Positions 11,441 to 33,777 are shown, numbered from the stretch's first letter. The stretch is DNA of 34,842 nt from Minisyncoccota bacterium (GCA_020058565.1 JAGVDT010000036.1:1-34842); one strand, 5' to 3'. Made by a program: numbers and translations. The notes: generated from the letters alone by a model not told the origin.

Positions 11441-11472
11441 GCGCTAAGGATACCTCGACTCACGCGGCTTCA

Positions 11473-17982: not shown

Positions 17983-19218
17983 CTACATGACCTTGACCTT
18001 CGGTACCGGTATGATGAATTTCGTACCCTGCGCCCGCAGCGCCTGTTCGCGATGCAAGATCGCAGGCGCATAGTTCCAAGCCAGCAAAAGCAAATAATCC
18101 GGCCTCTTCGTGAAAAGTATATCTGGGGGGACCACCGGGATATGCGCTCCCGGAGTAAACGTCCATTGCTTGAGGGGTATGGTATCGGTAATGAAATCCA
18201 GATGTTTGGCTGTAACACCGACGTAATTCAAAAGGGTGTTGCCCTTGGCCGAAGCTCCGTACCCCGCAATAGAGGCGCCTTTTTTCTTTAGTTTGTCTAA
18301 GAGCGACTTAAGGTCGCGTTTGTTTTTCTCTACTTTAGGGGCAAACCGGCGGAATGCGCGCATGGAGTCGATGCCTACGCTCCTTTCTAGGGCGAGAAGT
18401 TTTTTGACCCTTGCGGAAGGCTTTCCTTTTTTCTGCACGAAAAATCTCAAAGATTCTCCGTGTATCGGGACCCTCTGTACGTCGGTTACCATAAAACCAA
18501 ATCGCTCTGCGAGATATTTGACGGCGTGGAGCGAATAGTAGGAAAGATGTTCGTGATAAATCTGGTCGAATCCTCCATCGCCGATCAAGTTGTAAACCCA
18601 ATGCGCCTCGAAGACAAAAACCCCGTCGTCGCGCAAAAGTATCTCAATCCCCCTGAAAACATCGTCCAGATCGTCGATATGCGCTATCACATTGTTTGCG
18701 AATATGACTTTCGCTTGGCCATGCTTTTTGACGATGTCCTTGGCAACGCGGACGCCGAAAAAGTCAACGATTGTTTCGACACCTCGTTTTTTAGCCTCGA
18801 GCGCGGCAGTCTCTGCCGGGTCGACCCCAAGCACGTTCACTTCATCTTTTATGGCAGAAAGCAAAATACCGTCATTACTTCCTATTTCGACCGCCAGATC
18901 TCCCCGCCCGAGTCCGAAGCGCTTTACGATGTCTCGCGCCTCTCTCTGGAAATGGTCAACCAGGACCGGGGATCCGGACGTCAAATAATGGTACCCAGAA
19001 AATAAAACCTCCGGGTCCACCACATGCGCCAACTGCACCAGAGAACATTTCCGACAAAAAACGAGCTGCAGCGGATACGTTGCGTCCTTTTTACGGGCAG
19101 CCTCCTTGGAGAGAAAGGCATTGGCGAGCGCGGTCTTGCCAAGGTTTAGGATGAGCTTCAAATCTTTTGCGCCGCAGATCCGGCAGGTCTTTCTTTTACG
19201 GAAATGAGCGCTTGACAT
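17983..19218 (-). CDS. SAM-dependent NDP-hexose C-methyltransferase (TylCIII-like architecture)
   Basis: N-terminal Zn-ribbon-type CRICGAKDLKLILNLGKTALANAF, a class I methyltransferase core (DLAVEIGSNDGILL), and a C-methyltransferase C-terminal domain. I prefer the start at MSSAHF (ATG is rc of 19216-19218, preceded by aagggggc), because the track's longer ORF overlaps the upstream gene by 67 nt. Confidence 0.7.
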   Translation of the reverse strand: MSSAHFRKRKTCRICGAKDLKLILNLGKTALANAFLSKEAARKKDATYPLQLVFCRKCSLVQLAHVVDPEVLFSGYHYLTSGSPVLVDHFQREARDIVKRFGLGRGDLAVEIGSNDGILLSAIKDEVNVLGVDPAETAALEAKKRGVETIVDFFGVRVAKDIVKKHGQAKVIFANNVIAHIDDLDDVFRGIEILLRDDGVFVFEAHWVYNLIGDGGFDQIYHEHLSYYSLHAVKYLAERFGFMVTDVQRVPIHGESLRFFVQKKGKPSARVKKLLALERSVGIDSMRAFRRFAPKVEKNKRDLKSLLDKLKKKGASIAGYGASAKGNTLLNYVGVTAKHLDFITDTIPLKQWTFTPGAHIPVVPPDILFTKRPDYLLLLAWNYAPAILHREQALRAQGTKFIIPVPKVKVM

Positions 19219-19229
19219 GCCCCCTTGTA

Positions 19230-20678
19230 TCACTTTTTTGGAGTTTGGGAAACAGTCTTCTCCTCGAAGAATTCCTGCTCCTCGCCGAGCTCCCATACGT
19301 CATGATGTTCGCCAAAGAGATTGCGAACCGTCAACATTCCCGTGTACATGGCATGATCCTGGTCCTTGTATTTGTACATGCCCGCCCTGCCAATGAGCCT
19401 GAGATTCTGAAACTGCTCCAAGAAAGCTCTCAGCGCTGCAAACTTTTCGCGGTACCCCATATAATATGTCGGGTATGCGTCGTCGCTTCGTATTACGTAC
19501 GCGCCGCCAAATTCTTCGTGACGGACTAAGCCAAGCTCTGTCATTTCTCGGAGCGCCAACTCGATGAGCTCGTCATCCTTTTTATTCCAAAACTCATCAC
19601 CCTCATAACAGAAAAACTCGATGCCTATGGCGGATGTGTTTGGGTCGGCCAACATGTCGGAGCTAAACTGCCCGTAGTTGCCTATCCGCGCAATCCGCAC
19701 GTCGGTGGATTGAATATAGAACCACGAATCTTCAAACAAGTCTTTGCGCTTGATTATCATGTTGACGACGATATGCGCTCGAAAACGCATTGCTTTTGTG
19801 AGCTCCAGCACATTCTTTGAAGCCGGCGGCGTCATCGACGCGACGAGAAGATTGCTGGGAATACTGGAGATAAACACGTCTCCTTCCACATCCTCTCGCC
19901 CCGCTGCAGTCTCGACAGTCACCGCGCGTATGCACGACTCTTCGCATCTGACTGCAATGATTTTGCTGTTGAGCAAAAATTTCACTCCCAAGACCTCAAG
20001 TTCTTGCTGCATTTTCTCGTAAAACATGCCCGCCCCGTATCGGGGATAGAAAAATTGCGCGCCAATGTTTTTCACTTGCTCCATAGTAAACATGCTCTTG
20101 ACCAGTTCGCCGAATACATCGAGTATTTTTATCGGTTTTATGCGCTGTCCGGCCCAGTCCACCCCCACCTCGTCAGCCTCAATACCCCACACTTTTTTCG
20201 TGTAATCCCGGAAAAAAGCTTTTGATATCCTGTTGCCGAAGGTTTTGGTCGTCCACTCCGCGAAATTTTTGGGCTCTTTGTTGCGCCATACGAGCTGCGC
20301 TTTTAGAAAACTTGCTCCGGCGAGCATGCTCTGTATCAAACCAAGGTTATACAGCGCGTTCACCATCTTTAGAGGATATTGGAAAAATCTCCCCCGATAA
20401 TATATGCGTGTTATTCTGGGCCGAACGAGCAAATCTTTGCCGAGCATTTTCTTCCAGAGGTCCTCAACCTCGGCATACTTTGTCATCATCCGATGCGGCC
20501 CGACGTCAAAAAAATATCCCTGGAATTTTTCTGTGCGCGCCAGCCCTCCGACGCGATCATTTTTATCAAGCACCACCACATGTTTGGCGCCTCTTTTTGA
20601 AAGTTCCCACGCAGCGCCCATACCCGCAGGACCAGCGCCCAGTATCACAAATCTCTTGTCTTTCGTTTCACCAACCAT
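19230..20678 (-). CDS. FAD-dependent oxidoreductase, UDP-galactopyranose-mutase-like (tentative)
   Basis: Rossmann motif FVILGAGPAGMGAAWELSKRG...VLDKNDRVGGLART, then DVGPHRMMT and YTKKVWG, comparable to the Glf motifs GPHIFHT and YT.KQWG. It is a paralogue of 28578-30005. Confidence 0.55.
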   Translation of the reverse strand: MVGETKDKRFVILGAGPAGMGAAWELSKRGAKHVVVLDKNDRVGGLARTEKFQGYFFDVGPHRMMTKYAEVEDLWKKMLGKDLLVRPRITRIYYRGRFFQYPLKMVNALYNLGLIQSMLAGASFLKAQLVWRNKEPKNFAEWTTKTFGNRISKAFFRDYTKKVWGIEADEVGVDWAGQRIKPIKILDVFGELVKSMFTMEQVKNIGAQFFYPRYGAGMFYEKMQQELEVLGVKFLLNSKIIAVRCEESCIRAVTVETAAGREDVEGDVFISSIPSNLLVASMTPPASKNVLELTKAMRFRAHIVVNMIIKRKDLFEDSWFYIQSTDVRIARIGNYGQFSSDMLADPNTSAIGIEFFCYEGDEFWNKKDDELIELALREMTELGLVRHEEFGGAYVIRSDDAYPTYYMGYREKFAALRAFLEQFQNLRLIGRAGMYKYKDQDHAMYTGMLTVRNLFGEHHDVWELGEEQEFFEEKTVSQTPKK

Positions 20679-21661: not shown

Positions 21662-22942
21662 TCAAATAGACAATCGCCATATTTTCCGCAGCCCATACGC
21701 CGCGAACACAAAAAAGAACCCAAGAAACGGAATGCTGTAGCGGCTCATTTCCGTGCCGCCGGGGTTTATGCCGCCCGAGATGCCGGCATTGATCCCCACC
21801 ATGGCGAGGAAAAACAACCCCCAGGGCAGGAGTTTGCGATCGGTCAGCGCCACGAGCCCGAGTGCATACACAAGCAGCCAGAAGACGCGGCCGGCCGCAA
21901 GGACAGCCTCCCACAGCGCCGAAGGGACGGCTTCATACAAAGAACGCGCCTGCGCATAAAGCATCGTGTGGATCAGGTATTCGTACCGGTCTGTAAAAAG
22001 CGAACTGAGCGAACGATGAATCTGAAAAAATAAGTATCCGGGCGTATCTTGCGCTATCACCTCGAGCGCGGCTTGTTTGTACTGAGCCGTATACTCAAAG
22101 CCAAAACGGGTGAATTTTCCGTCCCCAGGGCTGTCTGGCGCAACGTTTGCAATAGGAATCCCGCTCTGCGATGCGAATATGCTGACCGGATAAGCATACA
22201 AGTCATACCAGCCGCCGCTGCTTAATTCCCACGTATTGAACGTGATTTTGTTTCTGACATACCAGGGAGATATCACGGCAGCAGCGATTACTATGACTAG
22301 CGCCGCGCTGAGCAACGCCGCGCCAGATTTTTTGTCTCTTCGGTATGTCTGAAACGCAACAAACAGGACAAACACCGGTATGAAAAGGAGCGCAATGGGC
22401 CGCGCAAGCGTCGCAAGCCCCAGGAAAAGAGCGGCGAATTCGTAGCGATCGCGAAGCAACATCCAAAAGCTAAGCATCATCAGAAAGCCAAATAACACGT
22501 CCGACATCAAAAGCCCTCCCCAGTACACAAACATCGGCTCGAGCGCCACCAAAATCGCCGCCCAGATGGCGATCTGCCTATCCGCGAGCGCCGCGCCTAT
22601 TTTGTATGCAAAAACCACGATTGCCGCCGATAGTCCAGCCTGCACCAAAGCTATGGCAAAAAGCGGAAGCTTTGCATACAAGAGCGCCGCCAGAAACATC
22701 TGATACAGCGGGGTGTGAAAACCATTCGGGTAGTACGGCGGCTCGGTAGCAGCGCTAAACACGCCATGGTTGAGGAGATTGAGCGCGCCGTTGTAGAAAA
22801 AAGATTCTGCGTCCGAAAACGCGATAAACCCGTGCGCCCCGGCATGCACCTGCACGAAAAGCGCATAGAACGCGCGCAGGAGAAACGCGCCGAGAAAAAG
22901 CAAGACTTCCGTACGATGATCCCGATAAAAAATATGCAGCAT
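21662..22942 (-). CDS. GT-C fold membrane glycosyltransferase (ArnT/PMT-like)
   Basis: Polytopic protein with DAESFFYNGALNLLNHGVFS...YYPNGFHTPLYQMFLAAL, typical of ArnT/PMT_2-type enzymes. I chose the start at MLHIFY (ATG is rc of 22940-22942). The track's 512-aa version overlaps the upstream GT2 gene, and its extra N-terminus is Arg-rich junk. MVFDES (22987) is an alternative start. Confidence 0.65.
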   Translation of the reverse strand: MLHIFYRDHRTEVLLFLGAFLLRAFYALFVQVHAGAHGFIAFSDAESFFYNGALNLLNHGVFSAATEPPYYPNGFHTPLYQMFLAALLYAKLPLFAIALVQAGLSAAIVVFAYKIGAALADRQIAIWAAILVALEPMFVYWGGLLMSDVLFGFLMMLSFWMLLRDRYEFAALFLGLATLARPIALLFIPVFVLFVAFQTYRRDKKSGAALLSAALVIVIAAAVISPWYVRNKITFNTWELSSGGWYDLYAYPVSIFASQSGIPIANVAPDSPGDGKFTRFGFEYTAQYKQAALEVIAQDTPGYLFFQIHRSLSSLFTDRYEYLIHTMLYAQARSLYEAVPSALWEAVLAAGRVFWLLVYALGLVALTDRKLLPWGLFFLAMVGINAGISGGINPGGTEMSRYSIPFLGFFFVFAAYGLRKIWRLSI

Positions 22943-22956
22943 CGTGGTGGGGCGCT

Positions 22957-23673
22957 TCACATCCTGCCTGCTTTCATCAAAAACCATAACTTTAGGGCAT
23001 TGCCCAGCGTCTTTAAAACCACGCTCATTTTGGCGTTTTTGACTTCGCCTCCCGCACGCGGATGATAAAAAGAAGGCGCCTCGGCGATGCGGTACCCTTT
23101 TTTCGAAAACCTCACCACGATCTCGGCCAGTATGAAGACGCCGCTCGAGCCTTTCAGGTCTAGGCCTTTCAGCTTGTCTGCGCGCCATAGAGTGGCCCAT
23201 CCGAGGTCACCGACTCTCAGATCAAAAAGGATCGTGAGCAAAAGCAAATACCCATGCGTCATCAGCATTCTCCAGAGCGTGTAGTCGGGCCGGCCCCCGC
23301 GATACCCAAGCACCAGATCATTTGCTGCCATCATTTCGAAACAATGGCGCAAGTCCTCTACCAGAAATTGCCCGTCGGCAGGGATATAGGCGATAAACTC
23401 TTTTGTCGAAGCATTGATCCCGGTAAGCGTCGCTCGGCTAAATCCGCCATTTTTCTGGTGAATTATGCGCAATTTCTGATGTTTCTTTGCCAGCTCGTCG
23501 CAGATCTTGGCGGTATCGTCGCTACTGCCGTCGTCAACCACTATCACCTCAAAATCATCGAAATACTCAGGCAAGCGCTCCAGCGAATTCTCGACTACGC
23601 GCTCAATGTTCTCCTCTTCGTTGTAAGCAGGGATGACTATGCTTAAGCTCAAGTTTGGGTATCGTGCGGACAT
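22957..23673 (-). CDS. GT2 glycosyltransferase, polyprenyl-phosphate sugar synthase-like (DPM1/GtrB-like)
   Basis: LSIVIPAYNEEENIERVV...VIVVDDGSSDDT...NGGFSRA...IPADGQF. The start is taken at MSARYPN (ATG is rc of 23671-23673), 28 nt after the upstream stop. Confidence 0.75.
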   Translation of the reverse strand: MSARYPNLSLSIVIPAYNEEENIERVVENSLERLPEYFDDFEVIVVDDGSSDDTAKICDELAKKHQKLRIIHQKNGGFSRATLTGINASTKEFIAYIPADGQFLVEDLRHCFEMMAANDLVLGYRGGRPDYTLWRMLMTHGYLLLLTILFDLRVGDLGWATLWRADKLKGLDLKGSSGVFILAEIVVRFSKKGYRIAEAPSFYHPRAGGEVKNAKMSVVLKTLGNALKLWFLMKAGRM

Positions 23674-23701: not shown

Positions 23702-24436
23702 CTATATTTTGAGCCGCCGGAAAATAAAGCCAGGCAGCAGTTTGTATGCCAGCATAAGAGCTCCCCACCATCGAGGCACATATACGCCGATACCGTCTTT
23801 TTTGAGCCCCTGCACGATGCGCCGGGCAACTTTTGCCGGAGCGGCATAGGGCACCATGCTTCTGCGCCCAAAAGTCATGCCTGTTTTCATATAGCCGACT
23901 CGGTAATATTGGATCCGACATTTTGTTCCATGCAGTCTTTGGCTCAGTCCGCTGAAAAAGAATTCGAGCGCGCTCTTGGAGGCCGCATAAACAGTGTTTT
24001 TCGAACGGGGACGAGATTGTGCGACGCTCCCTATGCCTACCAATGCCCCATTCCTGCTCTCGAGCAGATCCGGCAAAAACGCTGTGGCAATGCGAACGGG
24101 CGCCGAAAAATTCACTTCGACGAGCCGGGTGATTTCGTCCTCTGAAAGTTTCTCGAAATCACGATCCAAATCTGATTGGCCGGAAACCAAAAAGAGACAG
24201 TCCGCCTTGCCGATCTTAGAATTGCACATGCTGCGCAGTTCTGCCCCGCTCAAAGCGCGTATGTCTCCTGCATGGTATTCGACCCGGCTGCTGTAGCGAA
24301 TCCGAAGATCGGATCGGATCGCAGAAAGATCCCGCGGATCTGATGCCACCAAGAATAGATCATGGCCGTGCCGCGCCAGTTCCTCTGCCAGAGCCCTTCC
24401 CAAACCCGCGGAAGCGCCGATGATAACTGATTTCAT
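23702..24436 (-). CDS. Short-chain dehydrogenase/reductase, DprE2-like
   Basis: VIIGASAGLGRALAEEL (TGxxxGxG-type) and YAASKSAL (YxxxK). The C-terminal tail LLPGFIFRRLKI resembles the ...SIFRKLPI tail I recall for mycobacterial DprE2. A 4-nt ATGA overlap links it to the upstream FAD oxidase gene. Confidence 0.65.
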   Translation of the reverse strand: MKSVIIGASAGLGRALAEELARHGHDLFLVASDPRDLSAIRSDLRIRYSSRVEYHAGDIRALSGAELRSMCNSKIGKADCLFLVSGQSDLDRDFEKLSEDEITRLVEVNFSAPVRIATAFLPDLLESRNGALVGIGSVAQSRPRSKNTVYAASKSALEFFFSGLSQRLHGTKCRIQYYRVGYMKTGMTFGRRSMVPYAAPAKVARRIVQGLKKDGIGVYVPRWWGALMLAYKLLPGFIFRRLKI

Positions 24437-25764
24437 ACAGATAGTTTCTGCGACAATGCCGAGGCGAACTGCCGGTTGGGATCATATGCTGCCATGCGCT
24501 CGCGCACTTTTTCATAATCCGGATACTCGCGTCTGATCAGTTCTCGGCTTATCCGCGAATCTTTGGCGATGTTGTCGATCGCGCCCATATCCACGTTTAA
24601 CGCATCGAGTGCTTCGTGAAAACCGGCTTTGCCAGTGTGAGGAACGACATCTATAGATATCACGAGGCCGCGGCCCGCAAAGTGCAGTAGCCGCTGTTTG
24701 CCGGAGAAGAACTTGCACGAGCCCAGCACGACCTGAGGACGGTAACTCCTCAGCAGTCTTTCGAACTTTTCGATGTATTTTTCGACCGATGCCTCAGGCA
24801 CGAGTATTTGACGCTCGATAAAGCCTTTTTTTCCGTACCAGTCGAAATAAAAGGAAATGCCCGCAACCGGATAATTAAACTGATAAAAAGGCATTTTTTC
24901 TTCGGATTTGAATTTCGTGTGCCATGTGCGGTACGCGAAGCCAAAAACCGGGATTGAAAGCGCGTTGAAATATGAAAACCTCTGCGTGGGCCGACGATCT
25001 AAGCTATGAAAAGATTCCAGAAGCTTTGCCGGTGTATGTTCGTCGCTGAAATTAGAGACCGTCACAAAACCCTGCCCCATATTTTTTCCGAAGACGCTGA
25101 AATCGTTAAAAGTATTTAGCGCATCGGCCGAATCGTTGACCTGCTGCAAAACCTCCACCATGTGCTGCAAATTTCGAAACGAAATGTTGCGGACCCGAAG
25201 CCACGGGCTCGGGATACGGGCCAGGCGAAGTTTGGCTTTGAGAATCACGCCGGTAAGCCCCATGCCGCCGATGGTGAGGTCAAAGAGCTCTTTGTTTTCG
25301 GCGCGCGAACATTTGAGCACTCCTTTTTGGGGATGAAAAACCTCTAGCTCCTCGACGCAGGACTCAAACAAACCTTCTTTGAACTGGTTTTTGCCGAAAA
25401 CATTGAACGCGATGCATCCTCCTATCGAAATCTGCGGATGGCCCGGCTCGACCGGCACCCGGAGGCCCCTGGGACACAAAAATATATGAAGTGCGTGCAG
25501 CGTTATGCCTGCCTCTACGGTAATCATCGGCGCTTTTGCATCGGCGTTAAATTCCAGAATTCTGCTGAATTTCCCAAAGCCGACCGAGACGGAATCTTTC
25601 CCGAAAGATGCGGCGACGTAAGAGAGTCCGGAGCCGCGCGGGATGAACCTGCCCGTTTTGGGAAACTTTTCCAAAAAACTATACCGATCCGGCTCAGCGT
25701 ATTTGCTGAGGAATTCTGACTGTCTATCTAGGCTGAAAAAACACCGTGTATCAATTGGCATCAT
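24433..25764 (-). CDS. FAD-linked (PCMH-type) oxidase, DprE1-like
   Basis: PRGSGLSYVAASFG (compare RGLGRSYGD), TVEAGITLHAL, and PVEPGHPQISIGGCIAFNVFGKNQF (compare GGAIACDIHGKNHH). The C-terminal ALO-like region ends in DPNRQFASALSQKLSV. Confidence 0.65.
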   Translation of the reverse strand: MMPIDTRCFFSLDRQSEFLSKYAEPDRYSFLEKFPKTGRFIPRGSGLSYVAASFGKDSVSVGFGKFSRILEFNADAKAPMITVEAGITLHALHIFLCPRGLRVPVEPGHPQISIGGCIAFNVFGKNQFKEGLFESCVEELEVFHPQKGVLKCSRAENKELFDLTIGGMGLTGVILKAKLRLARIPSPWLRVRNISFRNLQHMVEVLQQVNDSADALNTFNDFSVFGKNMGQGFVTVSNFSDEHTPAKLLESFHSLDRRPTQRFSYFNALSIPVFGFAYRTWHTKFKSEEKMPFYQFNYPVAGISFYFDWYGKKGFIERQILVPEASVEKYIEKFERLLRSYRPQVVLGSCKFFSGKQRLLHFAGRGLVISIDVVPHTGKAGFHEALDALNVDMGAIDNIAKDSRISRELIRREYPDYEKVRERMAAYDPNRQFASALSQKLSV

Positions 25765-25827: not shown

Positions 25828-27012
25828 TTATAGCCATTCGGGATGATCCATGGTCCAGCGGACAACTTTACGTAGACTCTCGTCAAATGCTACGGGGACA
25901 TTAAAACCTTCGGAGGCAAGGTACGATCCGTCAAGCGCATAGCGCATGTCGTGGCCGGGCCGGGATGCATGGAAAGCAACCATCTCGTGCTTGAGCGGTC
26001 TTGTTTTCTTGCCCTTGGCAGCGAGGTATTCGTTTACGTACTGTGCGACAAGCTTCGCGAGCGTAAGGTTGTCCACCTCTCTCTCGCCGACGATGTTGTA
26101 TTTGCCCTGCATCGCGGAGCCGTCGAGGAGCCTGCCGTTTTGCAGGAGCCAAATGGACGCGGCCGAGATATTGCGCGCATGGATGTACGAGCGTTTGCCC
26201 GCCTGCGTTTTGTTTCTATTGGCATGTATGTGGACCGTATCCCCCGCGAGCACTTTTTTGATGAGAAGCGGGATGAATTTTTCCGGGTGCTGCCGCTCGC
26301 CGAAGATATTCATGCAGTTCGTGATGAATATCGGCATGCGGTAGGTAGCGGCAAAAGATATCGCCGCCATTTCCCCGGCAGCTTTCGCGGCAGCATAGGG
26401 GTTGTTGGGGTTGTTGCGGTCCCACTCCTTAAACGCGACACCCTCGGGGGCGGGGCCGAAAACTTCGTCGGTCGAGAAATATTGGAATTTCCCTTCGAAG
26501 ACGGGCGTACGCGCCTGAGGATCTGCATTTTTCTTCAGCCTGAGTCCACCCCTGCGCGCGTAGTTAAGCAAATGCACTGTGCCGATCCCGTTGTCCATGA
26601 AAAACAGAAGCGGGTCTTCGATGGAGCGGTCCACATGCGAGCCTGCAGCAAGATGAATGATGTAATCGAACGGGCCGCCTAAATGCCTTGCGACGGAGTC
26701 GTTTATTTCTGCCCGCAGGTCGTGGTATACGAAACGAACGCGATGTTTCTCAATGTCCCAGACGTTTATTCCGACGAGCCGATTGAGGTTGCCGGATGTA
26801 TCAAGCCTATCGAGCGTGGTGACATGCCAGTCGGTGGTCTTGAGGATCTGCTCTACCAGATGATGCCCCACGAACCCCGCCGCACCGGTCACCAAGACTT
26901 TTTTGGGAGCCATTTCGTGCCGTGAACGCACCGCTCTGAACAACTTCCCGGCACTTTTCGCTGGCTTGCGGTCTCTGGTATTTGCTGCGGCACGCTTTTT
27001 CATCAGCATCAT
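25828..27012 (-). CDS. NDP-glucose 4,6-dehydratase (RmlB-like extended SDR)
   Basis: VLVTGAAGFVGHHLV, AAGSHVDRSI, STDEVFG, YAAAKAAGEM, RPGHDMRYALD. The start may instead be MAPKKVL (ATG is rc of 26911-26913). Confidence 0.8.
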   Translation of the reverse strand: MMLMKKRAAANTRDRKPAKSAGKLFRAVRSRHEMAPKKVLVTGAAGFVGHHLVEQILKTTDWHVTTLDRLDTSGNLNRLVGINVWDIEKHRVRFVYHDLRAEINDSVARHLGGPFDYIIHLAAGSHVDRSIEDPLLFFMDNGIGTVHLLNYARRGGLRLKKNADPQARTPVFEGKFQYFSTDEVFGPAPEGVAFKEWDRNNPNNPYAAAKAAGEMAAISFAATYRMPIFITNCMNIFGERQHPEKFIPLLIKKVLAGDTVHIHANRNKTQAGKRSYIHARNISAASIWLLQNGRLLDGSAMQGKYNIVGEREVDNLTLAKLVAQYVNEYLAAKGKKTRPLKHEMVAFHASRPGHDMRYALDGSYLASEGFNVPVAFDESLRKVVRWTMDHPEWL

Positions 27013-27078: not shown

Positions 27079-27196
27079 AAGATACAAGAAACAACAACCA
27101 AACAAATCTCAAGCACCAATATCCAATTCCCAAACCAGCCGTTTGCGTTTAATCATTGAGTATTGGATATTGTCTGTATCTTGTTTCTTGTATCTT
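27079..27196. repeat. 118-nt imperfect palindrome spanning the stop codon of the GT-C gene
   Basis: aagatacaagaaacaa (27079-27094) pairs perfectly with ttgtttcttgtatctt (27181-27196), 16 bp. caatatccaat (27117-27127) pairs with attggatattg (27162-27172), 11 bp. Confidence 0.7.
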
Positions 27197-28571
27197 GGAG
27201 TTTGATTATCGCGCTCCACACTCCATACAACGCCACCACAAAGACTAGCGGCAACGCCGGTAGCCGGTACTTAGCTTCTACATACGGCCCGCTTGCAAGC
27301 AGAAGGTATGCAAACAGCACAAGAAACAGCGCAAACGCCAAAAACGCCGCCCTATCGCGCGTCCACGCAAAGAAGCACCCTGCGAGAGCAAACCCGTATG
27401 TCACAAACAAAACCAGTGCCCAAATAATTTTCGGAAACTCTTTGAGCGCCGCAGAGGACGCTTCCGGGAAGCCTCCCCTGCTAAGCGCCGCATGAATGCT
27501 GGTTGCCGACTCAGGATTGTATTCGAAGGGCAGGATTTTTGTGTGTCCGTAATAGTAGATCGCTGCAATATCAGAAACAAATAAATTGCGCAGTACGCCC
27601 ACGGCGTATTGTTTGGCAAACTCCTGAGGATGTTGCTTGATACGCTCGATGGAGACGCGGACGAAATCTTTTTGGAATGGCAAATATCTGGTCGGTTCCC
27701 TGCTAAAGTAATGCATCATCGGTGGCACTTGATCACCCTCGATCGAAAGGTCTTTCGTGTAGAACTCATACAGATTGAAGCCTTGTATCGAGGAAAGTTC
27801 CGCGATGCCAAAGACTATTTTGTTCCTGGCAAGCCACGGAAATACCAAAAGAAGGATGATACCAACCATGGCTACGGTGCGGATAATCCTTCCGCGACGG
27901 TCGGTGCCGGAAAAGAACGCCAGGTGGATAATTTCAAAGAAGACGAATACTGCGGCGAGGTAGAGGGCCGTCGGCTTCGCGAGAACACTAAGCCCCAGCA
28001 CGAGTGCGCACAGGGCAAGATACCGCAGACTATTCTCCTGCCATGACCGAATCAAAAAATACGCAGCAGTCACCAAAAAAAGCACAAGAAGTGCGTCCGG
28101 CTCTGCTATCTGCGACCGATATAGATACAAAGGCTCGACAGAAAAAACGATCCCCGCGATCAGCGCGAAGCTGTGCGGCAAGAATAATCGGGCGAGTTTG
28201 TAGAGGACTGGCCCCAAAAGCGAAAGCAAGATATTGAGAAATATCATTGCAAGCCAGATGATTTCGAGCCCGCCAAAATACGCAAAAGGCGCGAAATACA
28301 GCGGCAAAAGCGGCGTACGCAGCGCATCCGGCTCATAGGGCGGGTCGACGAAGCGCGAGTAGCCATTTCCATGCGAGAGATTGTCCGCAATGATCACGTA
28401 GTGCTGCGTGTCGTTTCCATTTACAGAGCAATCATTCGAGAGAAAGAAGGCGCACGGGCCGTAGAAAATCATCAGCGCATAGAAAGCGAGAAGGTGCGCT
28501 ATGAGTCCCAGGCCGAATAGCGCCACAGGCGCTTTGCGCTCGCTGAAATACTTCGTGAACCAGTTCGGCAT
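27153..28571 (-). CDS. GT-C fold membrane glycosyltransferase (ArnT/PMT-like)
   Basis: DTQHYVIIADNLSHGNGYS...PDALRTPLLPLYFAPF, followed by >10 TM segments. Confidence 0.7.
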   Translation of the reverse strand: MPNWFTKYFSERKAPVALFGLGLIAHLLAFYALMIFYGPCAFFLSNDCSVNGNDTQHYVIIADNLSHGNGYSRFVDPPYEPDALRTPLLPLYFAPFAYFGGLEIIWLAMIFLNILLSLLGPVLYKLARLFLPHSFALIAGIVFSVEPLYLYRSQIAEPDALLVLFLVTAAYFLIRSWQENSLRYLALCALVLGLSVLAKPTALYLAAVFVFFEIIHLAFFSGTDRRGRIIRTVAMVGIILLLVFPWLARNKIVFGIAELSSIQGFNLYEFYTKDLSIEGDQVPPMMHYFSREPTRYLPFQKDFVRVSIERIKQHPQEFAKQYAVGVLRNLFVSDIAAIYYYGHTKILPFEYNPESATSIHAALSRGGFPEASSAALKEFPKIIWALVLFVTYGFALAGCFFAWTRDRAAFLAFALFLVLFAYLLLASGPYVEAKYRLPALPLVFVVALYGVWSAIIKLQDTRNKIQTISNTQ

Positions 28572-30976: not shown

Positions 30977-32431
30977 ATGCCAACTCTTTTCGGCTCTACG
31001 CGGGCGTACGCCGCCGTACTTTTGGGCCTTTTCGCGGTGATCTTTTTCTACGCGACGTACAAACTCACCGAGTCCCCTCCCACCTGGTACGACGAAGGCA
31101 TCTACATACAAGTTGCGCACTCGTTTGCCGAAAACGGTACGCAGTCGGTGCAGGTCGCGCCAGGTGAGTTTAAACGCATCGAGTTTTTGACCGTCGGCTT
31201 TCCGGTCATCGCCCCGGTAGCCGCATCGATCAAAATGTTTGGCTACTCAGTGTTTGCGGCTCGAATCCCGATGGTCATATTTATATTGCTATTCGCCGCA
31301 AGCGTCTGGTGGCTTATGTACCGTCTTGCCGGCCCCCGCGAGGCATTGCTTTCACTCCTCCTGGTGGCCACATTTCCTCTTCTCTACGGCAACGGCAAAA
31401 ACGTCCTCGGCGAGATTCCGGGGCTTTTATTTTCATGTCTTTCGCTCATCGCCCTCTACCGTCTCGAGCTCGATAATTTCAAAGGGGCAAAGAATTATTT
31501 CCTCCTCGGCCTAGCTGCCGGACTCACCGCCGCGTCCAAGCCGGTTTTCCTGCTCCTCCCCGGGGCAATTGCGATCGTGCTTATTTTCCGCTTGAAAAAA
31601 ATACTGCCACAATGGAAAGACATGCTGGTGGGTCCGGTAACGTTCATCGCCCTTATGGCGCTATGGACATATCTGCAGTTTGGCCCCGATGCGTCGCTCT
31701 CAGCGATTCTTGCCTACTATCTCAACCCCTATGGCGTCGCATCGGTTTCTGCAACTATGCTCGAAAACCTCGTGCGGCTTTTTACAGAAGACACACCGCT
31801 CTACTGCACGCTCTTGATGTCTGTTTGGATCGTATCAATCGCAGTACGCATCTATCGCAAACGTTCCGTATCGCTGGCGGAGTATTCCGCTTTCGTCTTT
31901 TCTGCTTTGGTTCTTATCGCATATCTGCGCACCGCAGGCTGGTACCGGTACTTTTTTGAAACCCTCGCAATGGCGCTTATACTTGCCCCGCTCTCGTTGA
32001 AGGTCATAGCTCAAGAATTCAGAAAATTCTTCCCGGAGCGGCTTGTGCTGGCAACGCCGATTGCCGGAGTATTTTTGCTTACCGCCCTGCAACTGTATGA
32101 ACTCAACGTCACCTCGTGGGTAGCCACGCACTACCATCGCACTACCGTAGCTGACATGGCGAAATTTTTCGATACATGGCCGGACGACAAAAGCATATTC
32201 GTATACAACAGCCCCGAAGCGCCCAACATGCTCGGGACCGGCAATTACTATCAGTACATGCAACCGACAGAAACCATCGCCTACGGCGCCGATCAATTGC
32301 AGGCGCTCAAAGACGGCGTTCCGGATTATGTGCTTGTGGCCGCTGCATATCATGAAAAATACCCCGAATTTTTCTCCCGATACGAAGTAACCGATGCGCC
32401 CATCCCTTATTTGCTGCTTAGTAGGAAATAA
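30977..32431 (+). CDS. GT-C fold membrane glycosyltransferase (ArnT/PMT-like)
   Basis: N-terminal TM, then PPTWYDEGIYIQVAHSFAENG, multiple TM segments, and a soluble C-terminal ~100 aa. Confidence 0.65.
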   Translation: MPTLFGSTRAYAAVLLGLFAVIFFYATYKLTESPPTWYDEGIYIQVAHSFAENGTQSVQVAPGEFKRIEFLTVGFPVIAPVAASIKMFGYSVFAARIPMVIFILLFAASVWWLMYRLAGPREALLSLLLVATFPLLYGNGKNVLGEIPGLLFSCLSLIALYRLELDNFKGAKNYFLLGLAAGLTAASKPVFLLLPGAIAIVLIFRLKKILPQWKDMLVGPVTFIALMALWTYLQFGPDASLSAILAYYLNPYGVASVSATMLENLVRLFTEDTPLYCTLLMSVWIVSIAVRIYRKRSVSLAEYSAFVFSALVLIAYLRTAGWYRYFFETLAMALILAPLSLKVIAQEFRKFFPERLVLATPIAGVFLLTALQLYELNVTSWVATHYHRTTVADMAKFFDTWPDDKSIFVYNSPEAPNMLGTGNYYQYMQPTETIAYGADQLQALKDGVPDYVLVAAAYHEKYPEFFSRYEVTDAPIPYLLLSRK

Positions 32432-32457: not shown

Positions 32458-33777
32458 ATGCTCACGCTGGTAATTCCCGTCTACAACTACGCCCATAAGC
32501 TCGAGGACACACTTTCGATTCTGAGAGCGTGGCTCAAAGACCGCTCGGATGTCAAAGAGATTCTATTCGTCAACGACGGCTCGACCGACTCTACCGCCGA
32601 GATGCTCTCTAAGCTGGAAAAGCCGATGCGCGCGCTCCACCTGCCGAAAAATTCCGGCAAAGGCGCGGCGGTAAAGGCCGGAGCCCTCGCCGCCACCGGC
32701 GATTACATTTTTTTTACCGATATAGACATGCCGTATGAACTCAACGCCATCGACCGCGCGCTTCAGGAATTCGCGCAAGGCGCAGACGTCGTAAGCGGCT
32801 CAAGGAATCTCGAAGGCTCCAAATCCAACGTAGAGCGCAGCGCCGAGCGCAAAGCTTCGAGCGTGCTTTTTTCTTGGCTCGCCAACTTCATACTGCTCGA
32901 ACATGTGCCGGATACGCAGTGCGGCCTAAAAGGCTTTACGCGCCCTGCAGCTCAGACTATTTTCGAAAATATTCGAGCAACGGGATACGTATTTGATGTT
33001 GAAATCCTCTACATCGCTCAGCATGAAAATTTGCGTATCGGATTCGTACCGGTAACTCTTATCAACGACTCTAATTCTTCAGTAAACGTTGTTAAAGACG
33101 GAGCAAGAATGGCGTTTGACCTTGCCCGGCTCTATATGCGCACCCGCACGCGCATCAACATGAAAGACGTGTTGTTCATATCCGGACTGGGTCTTGCTAT
33201 CGCCTTTCTCTTGATGCCGACTCTGCACAACATCGGGATATTGACCGCTCTCTCAGAGCGCGGCGTGCCGGTACTTTGGACGTTACTGGCGCTTCCGGTG
33301 TTTATGCCGCTGTTTCTCGTTGCAGGCTCTCTGGGCCTTTCGCTTTTGCCTTTCCACAAACATGCGGCCGCGCAGTTCAGCCGTTACGGGGTAATCGGAG
33401 CCTTCAACACCGCACTCAATGCCGCTATATTCAACACCCTGATCTACCTCAGCGGCGTATCGCAGGGGCCGCTGGTAACGGTCTTTGCGCTCATTACGTT
33501 CGCGATCGTCATCACGCAATCATTTTTCTGGAATATGTTCTGGACGTTTCGCAATACGCCTCCCCAAAACAGGCACAAACAATATGCGCGCTTCTTCGCT
33601 ATCACGAGCGTAGTAGCAATGATTAACCTCAGTATCATCCATGTCCTGGTCAACGTAGTAGGGGCACCCCCGGGGATACCGGTCAAGATCTGGGCCAACA
33701 TCGCACTCCTCTTGACCATCTTTACCGCAGTCCTCGGCAACTTTTTCGGCTACAAATTCTTCGTGTTCAAGAAATAA
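32458..33777 (+). CDS. GT2 polyprenyl-phosphate glycosyltransferase fused to a GtrA-like membrane domain
   Basis: LVIPVYNYAHKL...FVNDGSTDST...NSGKGAAVKAG...FFTDIDMPY (GT2). The C-terminus, FSRYGVIGAFNTALNAAIFNTL...FFWNMFWTFRN, is GtrA-type. Confidence 0.75.
   Translation: MLTLVIPVYNYAHKLEDTLSILRAWLKDRSDVKEILFVNDGSTDSTAEMLSKLEKPMRALHLPKNSGKGAAVKAGALAATGDYIFFTDIDMPYELNAIDRALQEFAQGADVVSGSRNLEGSKSNVERSAERKASSVLFSWLANFILLEHVPDTQCGLKGFTRPAAQTIFENIRATGYVFDVEILYIAQHENLRIGFVPVTLINDSNSSVNVVKDGARMAFDLARLYMRTRTRINMKDVLFISGLGLAIAFLLMPTLHNIGILTALSERGVPVLWTLLALPVFMPLFLVAGSLGLSLLPFHKHAAAQFSRYGVIGAFNTALNAAIFNTLIYLSGVSQGPLVTVFALITFAIVITQSFFWNMFWTFRNTPPQNRHKQYARFFAITSVVAMINLSIIHVLVNVVGAPPGIPVKIWANIALLLTIFTAVLGNFFGYKFFVFKK

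What the first reader, a model, noticed from the sequence alone, without database searches (positions are those of the whole stretch)
23702..25764. DprE1/DprE2-like pair: possible polyprenyl-phospho-arabinofuranose donor synthesis outside Actinobacteria
A PCMH-type FAD oxidase (RGSGLSY..., GGCIAFNVFGKNQF) overlaps a 244-aa SDR by 4 nt (ATGA). The SDR's tail, LLPGFIFRRLKI, resembles the DprE2 C-terminus as I recall it. In Corynebacteriales, DprE1/DprE2 epimerise decaprenyl-phospho-ribose to decaprenyl-phospho-arabinose. That product is the sole Araf donor for the GT-C arabinosyltransferases (AftA-D, EmbA-C). The mycobacterial locus is GtrA-like Rv3789, dprE1, dprE2, aftA, embCAB.

The same parts list surrounds the pair here: a polyprenyl-P GT2 immediately downstream (22957-23673), a GT2-GtrA fusion (32458-33777), and four ArnT-like GT-C enzymes. 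This predicts a lipid-linked furanose (arabinan-like) envelope polymer in this lineage. No UbiA-type phosphoribosyltransferase is visible in the window.
Basis: partly seen in the sequence, partly recalled or inferred. Interest (0 to 1): 0.7.

Follow-up and report, generated by a model that had tools for sequence, protein, structure and literature searches.

The report
GT2-coupled DprE1/DprE2-like sugar epimerase cassette
The two genes are real relatives of the mycobacterial arabinose-making enzymes DprE1 and DprE2, but they belong to a separate, widespread and unstudied branch that sits next to a different sugar-loading enzyme, so they probably remodel some other lipid-carried sugar rather than make arabinose.

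Summary
A 443-aa FAD oxidase (24433-25764, minus strand) overlaps a 244-aa SDR (23702-24436) by ATGA. DprE1 and DprE2 are their closest characterised relatives in sequence, in fold (TM 0.81-0.86) and in the SDR's C-terminal tail.

The arabinofuranose interpretation is only partly supported. Both proteins score far below NCBI's DprE1/DprE2 cut-offs. They form a clade separate from Actinobacterial and Gram-negative DprE1/E2 (73/100 and 100/100 NJ bootstraps).

Eight active-site positions differ systematically from canonical DprE1, while the conserved lysines Lys134, Lys367 and Lys418 are kept.

All seven non-actinobacterial canonical loci have a UbiA-type phosphoribosyltransferase next to the pair. 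None is found in the window or in 81 related loci. Instead, 60 of those 81 loci have a GT2 directly flanking the pair.

In the window the order is dehydratase, oxidase, SDR, GT2, GT-C. Close CPR relatives have the same locus without the pair, with a GT2 fused to the GT-C.

Best reading: an accessory cassette that oxidises and re-reduces, probably epimerising at C2, a GT2-made polyprenyl-phosphate sugar before a GT-C uses it. The sugar is unknown.

This is a new variant of a known kind, of moderate to good interest.

The parts
24433..25764 (-). DprE1-like FAD oxidase of the VAO/PCMH type, 443 aa. It belongs to the GT2-coupled clade.
   Evidence: - PF01565 at 59.5 bits.
- NCBIfam DprE1 model at 183 bits over the full length, against a 500-bit cut-off.
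- Mtb DprE1 at E 1.4e-26 over residues 41-442.
- AF2 model with pLDDT 94.5; the top 49 PDB fold hits are all DprE1, TM 0.81-0.86.
- Y49, K125, K351, Q319 and K401 (Mtb Y60, K134, K367, Q336, K418) are kept. F123, E317, S349, V368, S370 and N398 replace H132, Q334, V365, N385, C387 and Y415.
23702..24436 (-). DprE2-like short-chain dehydrogenase/reductase, 244 aa, overlapping the oxidase by ATGA.
   Evidence: - adh_short at 105.9 bits.
- PRK07102 at 146 bits (cut-off 267) and the DprE2 model at 87.5 bits (cut-off 250), both full length.
- PDB DprE2 chain 21gq_C at 2e-10 over residues 6-244.
- The alignment shows the SVA...YxxxK catalytic segment, with Ser, Tyr and Lys aligned to canonical DprE2, and the shared C-terminal P..IF+kL tail.
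- The split between the canonical clade and the window clade appears in 100 of 100 NJ bootstraps.
22957..23673 (-). GT2 of 238 aa with no transmembrane extension, of the DPMS/PpgS type. Proposed to be the polyprenyl-phosphate glycosyltransferase that makes the oxidase's substrate.
   Evidence: - PF00535 at 102.9 bits.
- The only full-length PDB match is Pyrococcus dolichol-P-mannose synthase 5mlz (residues 5-215, E 6e-14). Other GT2s match only about the first 100 residues.
- NCBIfam gives near full-length alignments to PpgS, dolichyl-P hexose transferase and AglJ.
- A GT2 flanks the pair directly in 60 of 81 related loci.
21662..22987 (-). GT-C-fold membrane glycosyltransferase, 441 aa from ATG 22987 (or GTG 22960), overlapping the GT2 stop. 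Proposed user of the remodelled lipid-linked sugar.
   Evidence: - Borderline Pfam hits: PMT_2 25.9, GT87 24.1 and Glyco_transf_22 20.9 bits.
- Homologues carry PMT_2/PMT hits and are named ArnT-like by JGI. Three homologues are GT2::GT-C fusions of 650-670 aa.
- AF2 model with pLDDT 87. Its 29 best PDB hits, through E 0.16, are all GT-C-fold proteins (AglB, ArnT, STT3, PglB, PMT, ALG9), at E about 1e-3 and TM 0.4-0.5. AftA ranks 26th.
25828..27012 (-). NDP-glucose 4,6-dehydratase-like enzyme (RmlB type), 63 nt upstream of the oxidase. Probably supplies or modifies the nucleotide sugar.
   Evidence: - PDB dTDP-glucose 4,6-dehydratase 8du1 at E 1.4e-47.
- TIGR01181 at 220 bits, against a 365-bit cut-off.
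- 86% identical to the dehydratase of CPR locus L095, where it is followed directly by a GT2::GT-C fusion with no oxidase or SDR.
32458..33777 (+). GT2-GtrA fusion. It is a second polyprenyl-P glycosyltransferase with a GtrA-type flippase domain, and that domain is the only candidate flippase in the window.
   Evidence: PF00535 at 93 bits plus PF04138 GtrA_DPMS_TM at 58 bits over residues 309-437.
27153..28571 (-). GT-C glycosyltransferase of the PMT_2/ArnT type.
   Evidence: PF13231 at 50.7 bits, above the 26.1-bit cut-off.
30977..32431 (+). GT-C glycosyltransferase of the PMT_2/ArnT type, next to the GT2-GtrA fusion.
   Evidence: PF13231 at 48.4 bits.
15721..17961 (-). Wzy_C (O-antigen ligase/polymerase-like) membrane protein with C-terminal TPR repeats. 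A possible assembler of the acceptor polymer.
   Evidence: PF04932 at 69 bits plus TPR families. It is 69% identical to its counterpart in the syntenic locus L094.
17983..19296 (-). NDP-hexose C-methyltransferase-like protein. It points to a branched or 6-deoxy sugar pathway in the locus.
   Evidence: PF08484 at 175.7 bits and PF08421 at 77.5 bits. The same family recurs beside the pair in loci from other phyla (cluster 8: 9 members in 7 loci overall, within three genes of the oxidase in 3).

Best explanation
The oxidase and SDR are the two halves of a DprE1/DprE2-type epimerase that works by oxidation followed by reduction. It belongs to a distinct clade coupled to a GT2 enzyme.

Proposed sequence of steps (all inferred from homology and gene order; none assayed):
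1. Cluster enzymes, including the RmlB-like dehydratase just upstream, supply a nucleotide sugar.
2. The DPMS/PpgS-like GT2 (22957-23673) transfers that sugar onto polyprenyl phosphate at the cytoplasmic face of the membrane.
3. The FAD oxidase (24433-25764) oxidises a ring hydroxyl of the lipid-linked sugar to a ketone. By analogy with DprE1 this is C2.
4. The SDR (23702-24436) reduces the ketone with NAD(P)H from the opposite face, giving the epimer.
5. The product is flipped across the membrane. The only candidate in the window is the GtrA domain at 32458-33777.
6. The GT-C encoded immediately downstream (21662-22987) uses it to decorate an extracytoplasmic acceptor.

The pair is therefore an accessory 'sugar-diversifying' insert in a Gtr-like three-component glycosylation system. 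It is not the PRPP/UbiA-based arabinofuranose pathway. The sugar is unknown. The dehydratase and C-methyltransferase in the locus hint at a 6-deoxy or branched hexose.
For: **Homology to DprE1/E2.** Shown in sequence, in fold and in the SDR tail. The pocket lysines Lys134, Lys367 and Lys418, plus Tyr60, Gln336 and Trp230, are conserved across 72 clade members.

**A distinct clade for both partners.**
- Bit scores are less than half those of UbiA-linked Gram-negative homologues. The oxidase scores 183 against their 404-434. The SDR scores 146 against their 230-359 on PRK07102.
- The clade is monophyletic in 73 of 100 NJ bootstraps for the oxidase. The split appears in 100 of 100 for the SDR.
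- Eight pocket positions are fixed differently, for example Q334 to E in 71 of 72 and Y415 to N in 63 of 72.

**Gene context.**
- In 81 related loci from more than ten phyla, the SDR lies directly downstream of the oxidase in 71.
- A GT2 directly flanks the pair on the same strand in 60: downstream in 36 and upstream in 24. A further 12 have one within 5 kb.
- Two different GT2 lineages, about 243 aa DPMS-like and about 340 aa GtrB-like, are recruited.
- UbiA/PPPRS is absent from all 81 loci and from the window. It lies next to the pair in 7 of 7 non-actinobacterial canonical loci.

**The four genes in the window are tightly packed.** There is an ATGA overlap, then a 28-nt gap, then a GT2 stop that overlaps the GT-C start.

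**A natural experiment.** Syntenic CPR loci L094 and L095/96 share the dehydratase (64-86% identity), the Wzy_C (69%) and, in L094, SecA and GatB.
- They lack the oxidase and SDR.
- They carry a GT2 fused to the orthologous GT-C (45-47% identity).
- This ties GT2 and GT-C functionally and marks the pair as an add-on.

**The GT2 is of the polyprenyl-P class**.

**Recurrent neighbours fit donor synthesis and export.** These include an LPG_synthase_TM flippase-like protein, methyltransferases, B12-radical SAM enzymes and YfhO-like or GT-C proteins.
Against: - No biochemical data exist for any member of this clade. The substrate, the regiochemistry (C2 or another carbon) and the outcome (epimer or not) all rest on analogy.
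- The window protein has Phe at the position of DprE1 His132, a residue that hydrogen-bonds ligands in DprE1 structures (PMC5659129). This could impair catalysis. However, 8 of 113 close homologues carry F, Y or N there, so it is probably tolerated.
- GT2 genes are common in glycan clusters, so some adjacency would arise by chance. The fixed gene order across phyla argues against that explanation.
- Only one contig of this genome is available, so a UbiA gene elsewhere cannot be excluded.
- CPR bacteria usually lack quinones (my own knowledge, not tested here), so the electron acceptor that reoxidises the FAD is unclear.
- The NJ bootstrap for the oxidase clade is moderate (73/100). No maximum-likelihood tree was built.
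Confidence: 0.6

Rival explanations
1. This is the canonical pathway. The pair converts polyprenyl-P-ribofuranose to polyprenyl-P-arabinofuranose, with the UbiA-type phosphoribosyltransferase and phosphatase encoded elsewhere in the genome. The GT-C enzymes are arabinofuranosyltransferases.
For: - DprE1/DprE2 are the nearest characterised homologues in sequence and fold.
- JGI already names the protein decaprenylphospho-beta-D-ribofuranose 2-oxidase.
- GT-C enzymes and a GtrA domain are present, as in the mycobacterial locus.
- In Mycobacterium the ubiA gene is not adjacent to dprE1 (my own knowledge), and no UbiA is seen in the 8.6-kb Rhodococcus plasmid stretch L091.
Against: - Both proteins are far below the equivalog cut-offs.
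- They fall outside the clade that holds Mtb, Rhodococcus and all UbiA-linked Gram-negative homologues.
- No UbiA was found in 81 related loci or in the window, against 7 of 7 for non-actinobacterial canonical loci.
- A GT2 takes UbiA's position beside the pair in 60 of 81 loci.
- Pocket residues differ systematically.
- The operon's GT-C shows no special similarity to AftA or Emb, which rank 26th and 29th in the fold search.
Confidence: 0.12
2. The pair acts on the GT2-made lipid-linked sugar, but the end product is not a simple 2-epimer. The keto intermediate could be the branch point for C- or O-methylation or amination. Alternatively, oxidation and reduction could occur at another carbon, or give net deoxygenation or inversion elsewhere.
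For: - Methyltransferases lie directly after the GT2, and B12-radical SAM enzymes directly after the SDR or before the oxidase, in many loci. A class I methyltransferase is within three genes in 17 loci and a B12-rSAM enzyme in 10.
- A C-methyltransferase is present in the window locus.
- The altered pocket residues imply a different substrate geometry.
Against: - The SDR is almost always present and directly coupled to the oxidase (71 of 81 loci). That is what a simple oxidise-then-reduce epimerase predicts.
- The methyltransferases are not universal, and none lies inside the window's four-gene unit.
Confidence: 0.15
3. The pair acts on a soluble substrate, such as a nucleotide sugar or a free sugar or alditol, as many VAO-family oxidases do. 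On this reading it only happens to sit in a glycan gene cluster.
For: - More distant relatives of the oxidase are soluble-substrate oxidases: sugar lactone, alditol and cytokinin oxidases.
- An NDP-sugar dehydratase lies immediately upstream.
Against: - The C-terminal substrate domain matches only DprE1.
- The SDR keeps the DprE2-specific C-terminal tail.
- The gene order with a polyprenyl-P-type GT2 is fixed across phyla.
- Flippase-like and GT-C neighbours recur.
Confidence: 0.08

Closest known systems
Mycobacterium tuberculosis DprE1/DprE2 (Rv3790/Rv3791), the decaprenyl-P-ribose 2'-epimerase
   Same: - A two-protein system: an FAD oxidase plus an NAD(P)H-dependent SDR.
- The same fold (TM 0.81-0.86).
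- Full-length alignment of both partners.
- Conserved Lys134, Lys367, Lys418, Tyr60, Gln336 and Trp230.
- The same SDR C-terminal tail.
- Adjacent, overlapping genes.
- GtrA and GT-C genes in the vicinity.
   Different: - 24% identity to Mtb DprE1 in my alignment, and 21% between the window SDR and Rhodococcus DprE2 (the actinobacterial stand-in).
- 183 bits against a 500-bit cut-off (DprE1) and 87.5 against 250 (DprE2) on the NCBIfam models.
- A separate clade.
- R58, T118, H136/H137, S228, Q334, V365 and Y415 are replaced across the clade.
- H132 is Phe, C387 is Ser and N385 is Val in this protein.
- There is no UbiA/PRPP route; a GT2 sits beside the pair instead.
UbiA-linked DprE1/DprE2 modules of Gram-negative bacteria. 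Examples are P. aeruginosa pilin D-Araf glycosylation and the O-antigen Araf side-chain systems of Kelly et al. 2024 (PMC11127046). Here they are represented by Rhizobium, Burkholderia, Salipiger, Flammeovirgaceae and Chondrinema plasmid loci.
   Same: - Found outside Actinobacteria.
- The oxidase and SDR are adjacent and often overlap.
- They feed GT-C enzymes through a lipid-linked monosaccharide.
- The SDRs are related to PRK07102.
   Different: - Those modules have a UbiA-type PPPRS next to the pair: directly upstream of the oxidase, or one GtrA gene away.
- They score 404-434 bits on the DprE1 model and 230-359 bits on PRK07102.
- The window's clade has none of these features and has a GT2 instead.
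Gtr-type three-component glycosylation systems (GtrA flippase, GtrB polyprenyl-P GT2, GtrC GT-C)
   Same: - A polyprenyl-P GT2, a GtrA-type domain and GT-C enzymes are all present.
- The GT2 and GT-C are even fused into one protein in close relatives.
   Different: Classical Gtr systems transfer the sugar unchanged. Here an oxidase/reductase pair is inserted between donor synthesis and use.
Citrobacter youngae O2 ORF13, a single SDR epimerase proposed to convert Und-P-ribofuranose to Und-P-xylofuranose (PMC11127046)
   Same: Both are auxiliary epimerases that diversify the lipid-linked donor of a three-component system.
   Different: - ORF13 is a single-protein, UDP-Glc-4-epimerase-like enzyme acting at C3.
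- Its substrate derives from PRPP and a PPPRS, not from a GT2.
- It is not an FAD oxidase plus SDR pair.

Membership tests
DprE1 (decaprenylphosphoryl-beta-D-ribose oxidase, NCBIfam NF053785) | A two-domain VAO/PCMH fold with the DprE1-type substrate-binding domain | tested here: met
   Full-length phmmer hit to Mtb DprE1 at 1.4e-26. The AF2 model's top 49 PDB hits are all DprE1, TM 0.81-0.86.
DprE1 (decaprenylphosphoryl-beta-D-ribose oxidase, NCBIfam NF053785) | A score at or above the curated equivalog cut-off | tested here: not met
   183.2 bits against a 500-bit cut-off. UbiA-linked Gram-negative homologues score 404-434.
DprE1 (decaprenylphosphoryl-beta-D-ribose oxidase, NCBIfam NF053785) | Core active-site residues Lys418, Lys134, Lys367, Tyr60 and Gln336 | tested here: met
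   K401, K125, K351, Y49 and Q319 in the window protein. They are nearly invariant in 72 clade members.
DprE1 (decaprenylphosphoryl-beta-D-ribose oxidase, NCBIfam NF053785) | Ligand-pocket residues His132, Gln334, Tyr415, Arg58, Thr118, Val365, Asn385 and Cys387 (pocket as described in PMC5659129 and PMC9525719) | tested here: not met
   The window has F123, E317, N398, L47, H109, S349, V368 and S370. Across the clade: Q334 to E in 71 of 72, Y415 to N in 63 of 72, R58 to a non-basic residue, and T118 to Y or H in 72 of 72.
DprE1 (decaprenylphosphoryl-beta-D-ribose oxidase, NCBIfam NF053785) | Placement inside the clade of characterised or UbiA-linked DprE1 | tested here: not met
   The window clade is separate in the NJ tree, with 73 of 100 bootstraps. 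It is 24-28% identical to canonical members, against 33-81% among the canonical members themselves.
DprE1 (decaprenylphosphoryl-beta-D-ribose oxidase, NCBIfam NF053785) | A pathway link to a polyprenyl-P phosphoribosyltransferase (UbiA family, Rv3806c type) that supplies polyprenyl-P-ribose | tested here: not met
   A UbiA HMM gave no hit in the window, in L001 or in 80 genome loci within 10 kb either side. It hit 7 of 7 non-actinobacterial canonical loci. The rest of this genome is not available.
DprE1 (decaprenylphosphoryl-beta-D-ribose oxidase, NCBIfam NF053785) | Oxidation of polyprenyl-P-ribose at C2' | not testable with these tools
   This needs an enzyme assay.
DprE2 (NCBIfam NF053786) and PRK07102 (Gram-negative DprE2-like SDR) | A classical SDR with the Ser-Tyr-Lys catalytic residues and the DprE2-type C-terminal tail, encoded directly after the oxidase | tested here: met
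   Full-length alignments. The SVA...YxxxK segment, with Ser, Tyr and Lys aligned, and the P..IF+kL tail are shared. ATGA overlap with the oxidase.
DprE2 (NCBIfam NF053786) and PRK07102 (Gram-negative DprE2-like SDR) | A score at or above the curated cut-off, and placement in the canonical clade | tested here: not met
   87.5 bits against 250 (DprE2) and 146 against 267 (PRK07102). The split from canonical SDRs appears in 100 of 100 bootstraps.
Gtr-like three-component extracytoplasmic glycosylation system | A polyprenyl-phosphate GT2 that makes a lipid-linked monosaccharide | tested here: inconclusive
   The GT2 aligns over its full length only with DPMS (5mlz), PpgS, dolichyl-P hexose transferase and AglJ. 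All scores are below equivalog cut-offs, and activity has not been assayed.
Gtr-like three-component extracytoplasmic glycosylation system | A GT-C glycosyltransferase functionally tied to the GT2 | tested here: met
   The GT-C overlaps the GT2 stop. Orthologues are fused to a GT2 in P0129, P0130 and P0134. GT-C fold.
Gtr-like three-component extracytoplasmic glycosylation system | A small flippase (GtrA type) | tested here: inconclusive
   The only GtrA domain in the window is fused to a different GT2 at 32458-33777. There is no dedicated flippase within the four-gene unit. Other phyla have an LPG_synthase_TM protein upstream of the pair.
Pentofuranose three-component systems (Kelly et al. 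2024, PMC11127046) | PPPRS (UbiA type, with or without a phosphatase), a MATE flippase and a GT136 GT-C | tested here: not met
   There is no UbiA. No MATE family hit appears among the window ORFs scanned. GT136 membership was not tested.

The most novel reading that the evidence does not exclude
The window carries one member of a large, uncharacterised cassette: a DprE1-like oxidase, a DprE2-like reductase and a polyprenyl-P GT2.
- **Size and spread:** the oxidase has 528 hits at E <= 1e-30 among clusters at 50% identity. Members occur in Proteobacteria, Acidobacteriota, Bacteroidota, Planctomycetota, Obscuribacterales, Acidimicrobiia, CPR and Thaumarchaeota.
- **Proposed function:** the cassette epimerises a nucleotide-sugar-derived, lipid-linked sugar that is not PRPP-derived ribose. 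This would create rare sugar donors for extracytoplasmic GT-C glycosylation.
- **Consequence if true:** lipid-level sugar epimerisation would be a general strategy well beyond arabinan and pentofuranose systems, and the many database entries for this clade named 'DprE1' would be mis-annotated.
Probability: 0.5. Interest if true: 0.72.

Novelty: new variant of a known kind. Interest (0 to 1): 0.58.

Why it matters
**What is known.** DprE1/DprE2 is a leading tuberculosis drug target. Until now it has been the only known oxidase-plus-reductase epimerase acting on a lipid-linked sugar, and it has always been tied to PRPP-derived ribose. Kelly et al. 2024 (PMC11127046) state that they know of no other epimerases in side-chain glycosylation systems beyond their pentofuranose cases.

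**What this would add.** A GT2-primed version would bring sugars that enter from nucleotide sugars, such as hexoses and 6-deoxyhexoses, into lipid-level sugar editing. That could explain rare sugars in the envelopes of many uncultured lineages, including CPR bacteria.

**Practical consequences.**
- Annotation pipelines currently propagate the name 'decaprenylphospho-beta-D-ribofuranose 2-oxidase' to this clade without the pathway context that would justify it.
- The cassette also occurs in cultured bacteria (Azospirillum brasilense, Paramagnetospirillum caucaseum, Magnetospirillum sp. SS-4), so the idea can be tested directly.

Tried and rejected
- **Non-coding RNA.** Rfam and tRNA scans of the window found nothing.
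- **Operon boundaries.** The promoter and terminator pattern scan gave no usable boundaries. All terminator-like hits between 21662 and 25764 lie inside coding sequence.
- **Gene calling.** My first crude gene callers lost the SDR or the GT2 to overlapping long ORFs, and in high-GC loci they called antisense ORFs. I therefore recounted adjacency with phmmer and HMMs on six-frame translations, which does not depend on gene calls.
- **Literature.** Five full-text searches found no description of a GT2-linked DprE1/E2-like module and no link between CPR bacteria and DprE1.
- **Plasmids.** The plasmid collection holds no close member of the window clade; the best hit is 31.6% identical and is UbiA-linked. 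It did supply the canonical comparison loci.
- **Sugar identity.** I considered polyprenyl-P-glucose to mannose, a quinovose-type to rhamnose-type conversion, and furanose substrates made by the two GLF-like FAD proteins. None can be decided from sequence. The GLF-like genes are not part of the conserved core: they appear only in the window, L001 and L031.
- **His132 to Phe as a sign of a dead enzyme.** I considered this and set it aside, because the same change recurs in intact homologues.

Full report
**1. The observation**

The window is a complete 34,842-bp contig. The oxidase's cluster record gives a longest contig of exactly that length.

On the minus strand, ORF 24433-25764 encodes a 443-aa protein containing RGSGLSY and GGCIAFNVFGKNQF. 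ORF 23702-24436 encodes a 244-aa protein ending LLPGFIFRRLKI. The two overlap as ATGA.

Pfam assigns FAD_binding_4 (59.5 bits) to the first and adh_short (105.9 bits) to the second.

**2. Are they DprE1/DprE2-like?**

Yes, at the level of homology.

- *NCBIfam, oxidase.* The best model is the DprE1 equivalog: 183 bits, aligned over residues 40-442 of 443. Every other family scores 37 bits or less and matches only the N-terminus.
- *PDB sequences.* Mtb DprE1 is hit at 1.4e-26 over residues 41-442. The next family, cytokinin dehydrogenase, is at 5e-8 and matches only the FAD domain.
- *Fold.* An AlphaFold2 model (pLDDT 94.5) finds DprE1 chains as its 49 best PDB matches (TM 0.81-0.86). Cytokinin oxidase follows at TM 0.73.
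- *SDR.* It aligns end to end with the DprE2 model (87.5 bits) and with the DprE2 chain of the DprE1-DprE2 complex, 21gq_C (2e-10, residues 6-244).
- *SDR tail.* The extreme C-terminus shares the P..IF+kL tail with Rhodococcus DprE2 (...IPRAIFRKLPI) and with Gram-negative homologues.

**3. Are they members of the DprE1/DprE2 families?**

No, on the tests I could run. Both scores are far below the curated cut-offs (500 and 250 bits).

For comparison I collected canonical modules from annotated plasmids: Rhizobium leguminosarum, Burkholderia stagnalis, Salipiger profundus, a Rhodobacteraceae strain, a Flammeovirgaceae strain, Chondrinema litorale, Kovacikia minuta and Rhodococcus ruber.

| Protein | UbiA-linked Gram-negative homologues tested | Window |
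|---|---|---|
| Oxidase on the DprE1 model | 404-434 bits | 183 bits |
| SDR on PRK07102 | 230-359 bits | 146 bits |

PRK07102 turns out to be the Gram-negative DprE2-like family.

The trees agree.
- In an NJ tree of 83 oxidases, the window protein groups with all 80 genome-derived homologues. It is separate from Mtb, Rhodococcus and every UbiA-linked sequence. This clade is recovered in 73 of 100 bootstraps.
- For the SDR, the split between canonical and window-clade sequences is recovered in 100 of 100.
- Identity to canonical oxidases is 24-28%. The canonical sequences share 33-81% identity among themselves.

**4. The active site**

I mapped the alignment onto Mtb numbering.

- *Conserved in both clades:* Tyr60, Gly133, Lys134, Trp230, Gln336, Lys367, Phe369 and Lys418 (within AKDSR).
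- *Fixed differently in the window clade (n = 72):*

| Mtb position | Canonical | Window clade |
|---|---|---|
| Arg58 | R 9/9 | L/Y/V/M |
| Thr118 | T 8/9 | Y/H 72/72 |
| Arg/Lys119 | K/R 9/9 | P 72/72 |
| His136-His137 | HH 9/9 | Q/P then F/Y |
| Ser/Val228 | V/S/M | Y 60/72 |
| Gln334 | Q 9/9 | E 71/72 |
| Val365 | V 9/9 | S 60/72 |
| Tyr415 | Y 9/9 | N 63/72 |

Most of these positions line the ligand pocket in DprE1 crystal structures (PMC5659129, PMC9525719).

The window protein also has Phe at His132, Ser at Cys387 and Val at Asn385. The His-to-Phe change is shared by five other close homologues, and one more has Tyr and one Asn, out of 113. I therefore read it as tolerated rather than inactivating, though it remains a caveat.

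My inference is that the chemistry is retained and the substrate differs.

**5. Genomic context: the decisive contrast**

*Canonical loci.* In all seven non-actinobacterial canonical loci, a UbiA-family phosphoribosyltransferase (PPPRS) lies next to the pair. It is directly upstream of the oxidase in five annotated loci and one GtrA gene away in Rhizobium and Salipiger. In the unannotated Kovacikia locus my UbiA HMM finds it within about 1 kb upstream.

*Window clade.* That HMM, built from six of these UbiA proteins, finds nothing in any frame of the window, of the syntenic Kaiserbacteria locus L001, or of 80 genome loci within 10 kb either side.

What flanks the pair there is different (81 related loci):
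- The SDR lies directly downstream of the oxidase in 71.
- A GT2 directly flanks the pair on the same strand in 60: after the SDR in 36 and before the oxidase in 24.
- Another 12 have a GT2 within 5 kb. Only 5 have none, and 4 are truncated by a contig edge.
- The downstream GT2s (about 243 aa, DPMS-like) and the upstream ones (about 340 aa, GtrB-like) are different lineages. So the association with a polyprenyl-P-type GT2 arose more than once.

Recurrent operon types:
- LPG_synthase_TM, oxidase, SDR, GT2, methyltransferase (beta- and gammaproteobacteria; Bacteroidota have the core without LPG_synthase_TM).
- GT2, oxidase, SDR, B12-radical SAM, with a YfhO-like GT-C in some (alphaproteobacteria).
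- NTP-transferase, GT2, oxidase, SDR, NAD-epimerase (Obscuribacterales).
- Dehydratase, oxidase, SDR, GT2, GT-C (CPR).

**6. The window's own operon, and a natural experiment**

The genes are tightly packed.
- The RmlB-like dehydratase (25828-27012; PDB 8du1 at 1.4e-47) ends 63 nt before the oxidase.
- The oxidase and SDR overlap by ATGA.
- The GT2 ATG follows the SDR stop after 28 nt.
- The GT2 stop overlaps the GT-C start, which is GTG at 22960 or ATG at 22987.

The GT2's only full-length structural relative by sequence is Pyrococcus dolichol-P-mannose synthase. NCBIfam aligns it nearly end to end with PpgS, dolichyl-P hexose transferase and AglJ.

The downstream protein is a GT-C.
- Its homologues carry PMT_2/PMT hits.
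- Its model (pLDDT 87) has GT-C-fold proteins as its 29 best PDB matches, though weakly. There is no preference for AftA or Emb.
- Three of its homologues are single polypeptides of 650-670 aa in which a GT2 is fused to this GT-C.

The loci that encode those fusions, L094 and L095/96, are syntenic with the window but contain no oxidase or SDR in any frame.
- The dehydratase is 64% (L094) and 86% (L095) identical to the window's.
- The Wzy_C-TPR protein of L094 is 69% identical, and L094 also carries SecA and GatB.
- The GT-C portion of the fusions is 45-47% identical.

So GT2 and GT-C form the functional core. The oxidase-SDR pair is an accessory insert between nucleotide-sugar supply and donor use.

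**7. Mechanism proposed**

The GT2 loads a nucleotide-sugar-derived sugar onto polyprenyl phosphate. The FAD oxidase makes the keto sugar, at C2 by analogy with DprE1. The SDR reduces it to the epimer. The product is flipped and then used by the GT-C.

- *Shown here:* homology, fold, conserved core active-site residues, gene order, fusion, presence or absence in syntenic loci, and the absence of UbiA.
- *Inferred:* the lipid-linked nature of the substrate, the regiochemistry, the epimeric outcome, the flippase and the acceptor.

The sugar is unknown. The RmlB-like dehydratase, a UDP-Glc-4-epimerase-like protein and a TylC3-type C-methyltransferase (the same family recurs near the pair in other phyla) hint at a 6-deoxy or branched hexose.

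**8. Comparison with what is known**

DprE1/E2 homologues outside Actinobacteria are already established. Examples are P. aeruginosa pilin arabinosylation and the O-antigen Araf side chains. Kelly et al. 2024 (PMC11127046) argue that all such pentofuranose systems start from a PPPRS and PRPP, and they say they know of no other epimerases in side-chain glycosylation systems.

The window's module differs in its entry enzyme (a GT2 rather than UbiA), in clade and in pocket. Five literature searches found no description of it. Public pipelines nevertheless label it DprE1.

The clade is large: 528 representatives at 50% identity score E <= 1e-30.

**9. Verdict**

The pair is DprE1/E2-like, but not the canonical arabinofuranose route.
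- Novelty: a new variant of a known kind.
- Confidence in the GT2-primed lipid-sugar epimerase model is about 0.6. Confidence in the canonical DPA pathway is about 0.12.

Noticed in passing
window 1-4620 (minus strand) and 5172-6191 (minus strand): An ORF of at least 1540 aa starts at 4620 and runs off the contig end. The ORF listing does not show it for that reason. Its only Pfam signal is a weak, sub-threshold N-terminal HTH_17 match (26.1 bits against a 27-bit cut-off). The region has unusually high GC content (0.54-0.57) and GC skew (+0.20 to +0.24). The neighbouring 339-aa ORF also carries HTH_17 (41.7 bits, above threshold).
   Followed up: partly
L094 8001-9956; L095 3448-5457; proteins P0129, P0130, P0134: Related CPR bacteria encode single polypeptides of 650-670 aa in which a polyprenyl-P-type GT2 is fused to a GT-C glycosyltransferase. 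Donor synthase and donor user are thus in one protein. Their loci are syntenic with the window but lack the oxidase-SDR pair.
   Followed up: yes
window 19230-20678 and 28578-30005 (both minus strand): There are two paralogous FAD proteins of the PRK07208 family (amine-oxidase fold with weak UDP-galactopyranose-mutase similarity). One scores 522 bits, above the 389-bit cut-off of a model NCBI still names 'hypothetical protein'. They may make furanose nucleotide sugars. They are not part of the conserved core seen in other phyla.
   Followed up: partly
window 24433-25764, residue F123: Phe replaces the His that corresponds to DprE1 His132. The same change occurs in five other close homologues (P0002-P0004, P0007, P0013), and one further homologue has Tyr and one Asn. 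The rest of the clade keeps His.
   Followed up: yes
L041, L052, L070, L072, L074, L083 (about 9000-13000 in each): A conserved five-gene operon occurs in beta- and gammaproteobacteria: LPG_synthase_TM (flippase-like membrane protein), oxidase, SDR, GT2 and a class I methyltransferase of about 220 aa. L074 lacks the methyltransferase. Alphaproteobacteria instead have GT2, oxidase, SDR and a B12-radical SAM enzyme, followed in L004 by an 806-aa YfhO-like protein.
   Followed up: partly
L064 (Thaumarchaeota MAG, 10001-11284) and L010 (Candidatus Uhrbacteria): The same oxidase-SDR pair occurs in an archaeal MAG, on a 1.24-Mb contig, and in a second CPR lineage. In the latter the order is GT2, oxidase, SDR, C-methyltransferase. 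This suggests the cassette has moved horizontally.
   Followed up: no
window 9830-11440 (minus strand): A 536-aa protein gives weak apolipoprotein N-acyltransferase (Lnt) signals: CN_hydrolase at 44.9 bits and LNT_N at 38.4 bits. This is unexpected in what appears to be a CPR/Patescibacteria genome.
   Followed up: no
L086 7940-10699 and L092 8066-10669: In Burkholderia stagnalis and a Rhodobacteraceae plasmid, the canonical UbiA-oxidase-SDR module is followed by an extra NAD-epimerase-type SDR, an NAD(P)/FAD oxidoreductase and GtrA. These oxidases branch apart from the other canonical ones in the NJ tree. This may be a further variant, for example one that performs a second epimerisation.
   Followed up: no
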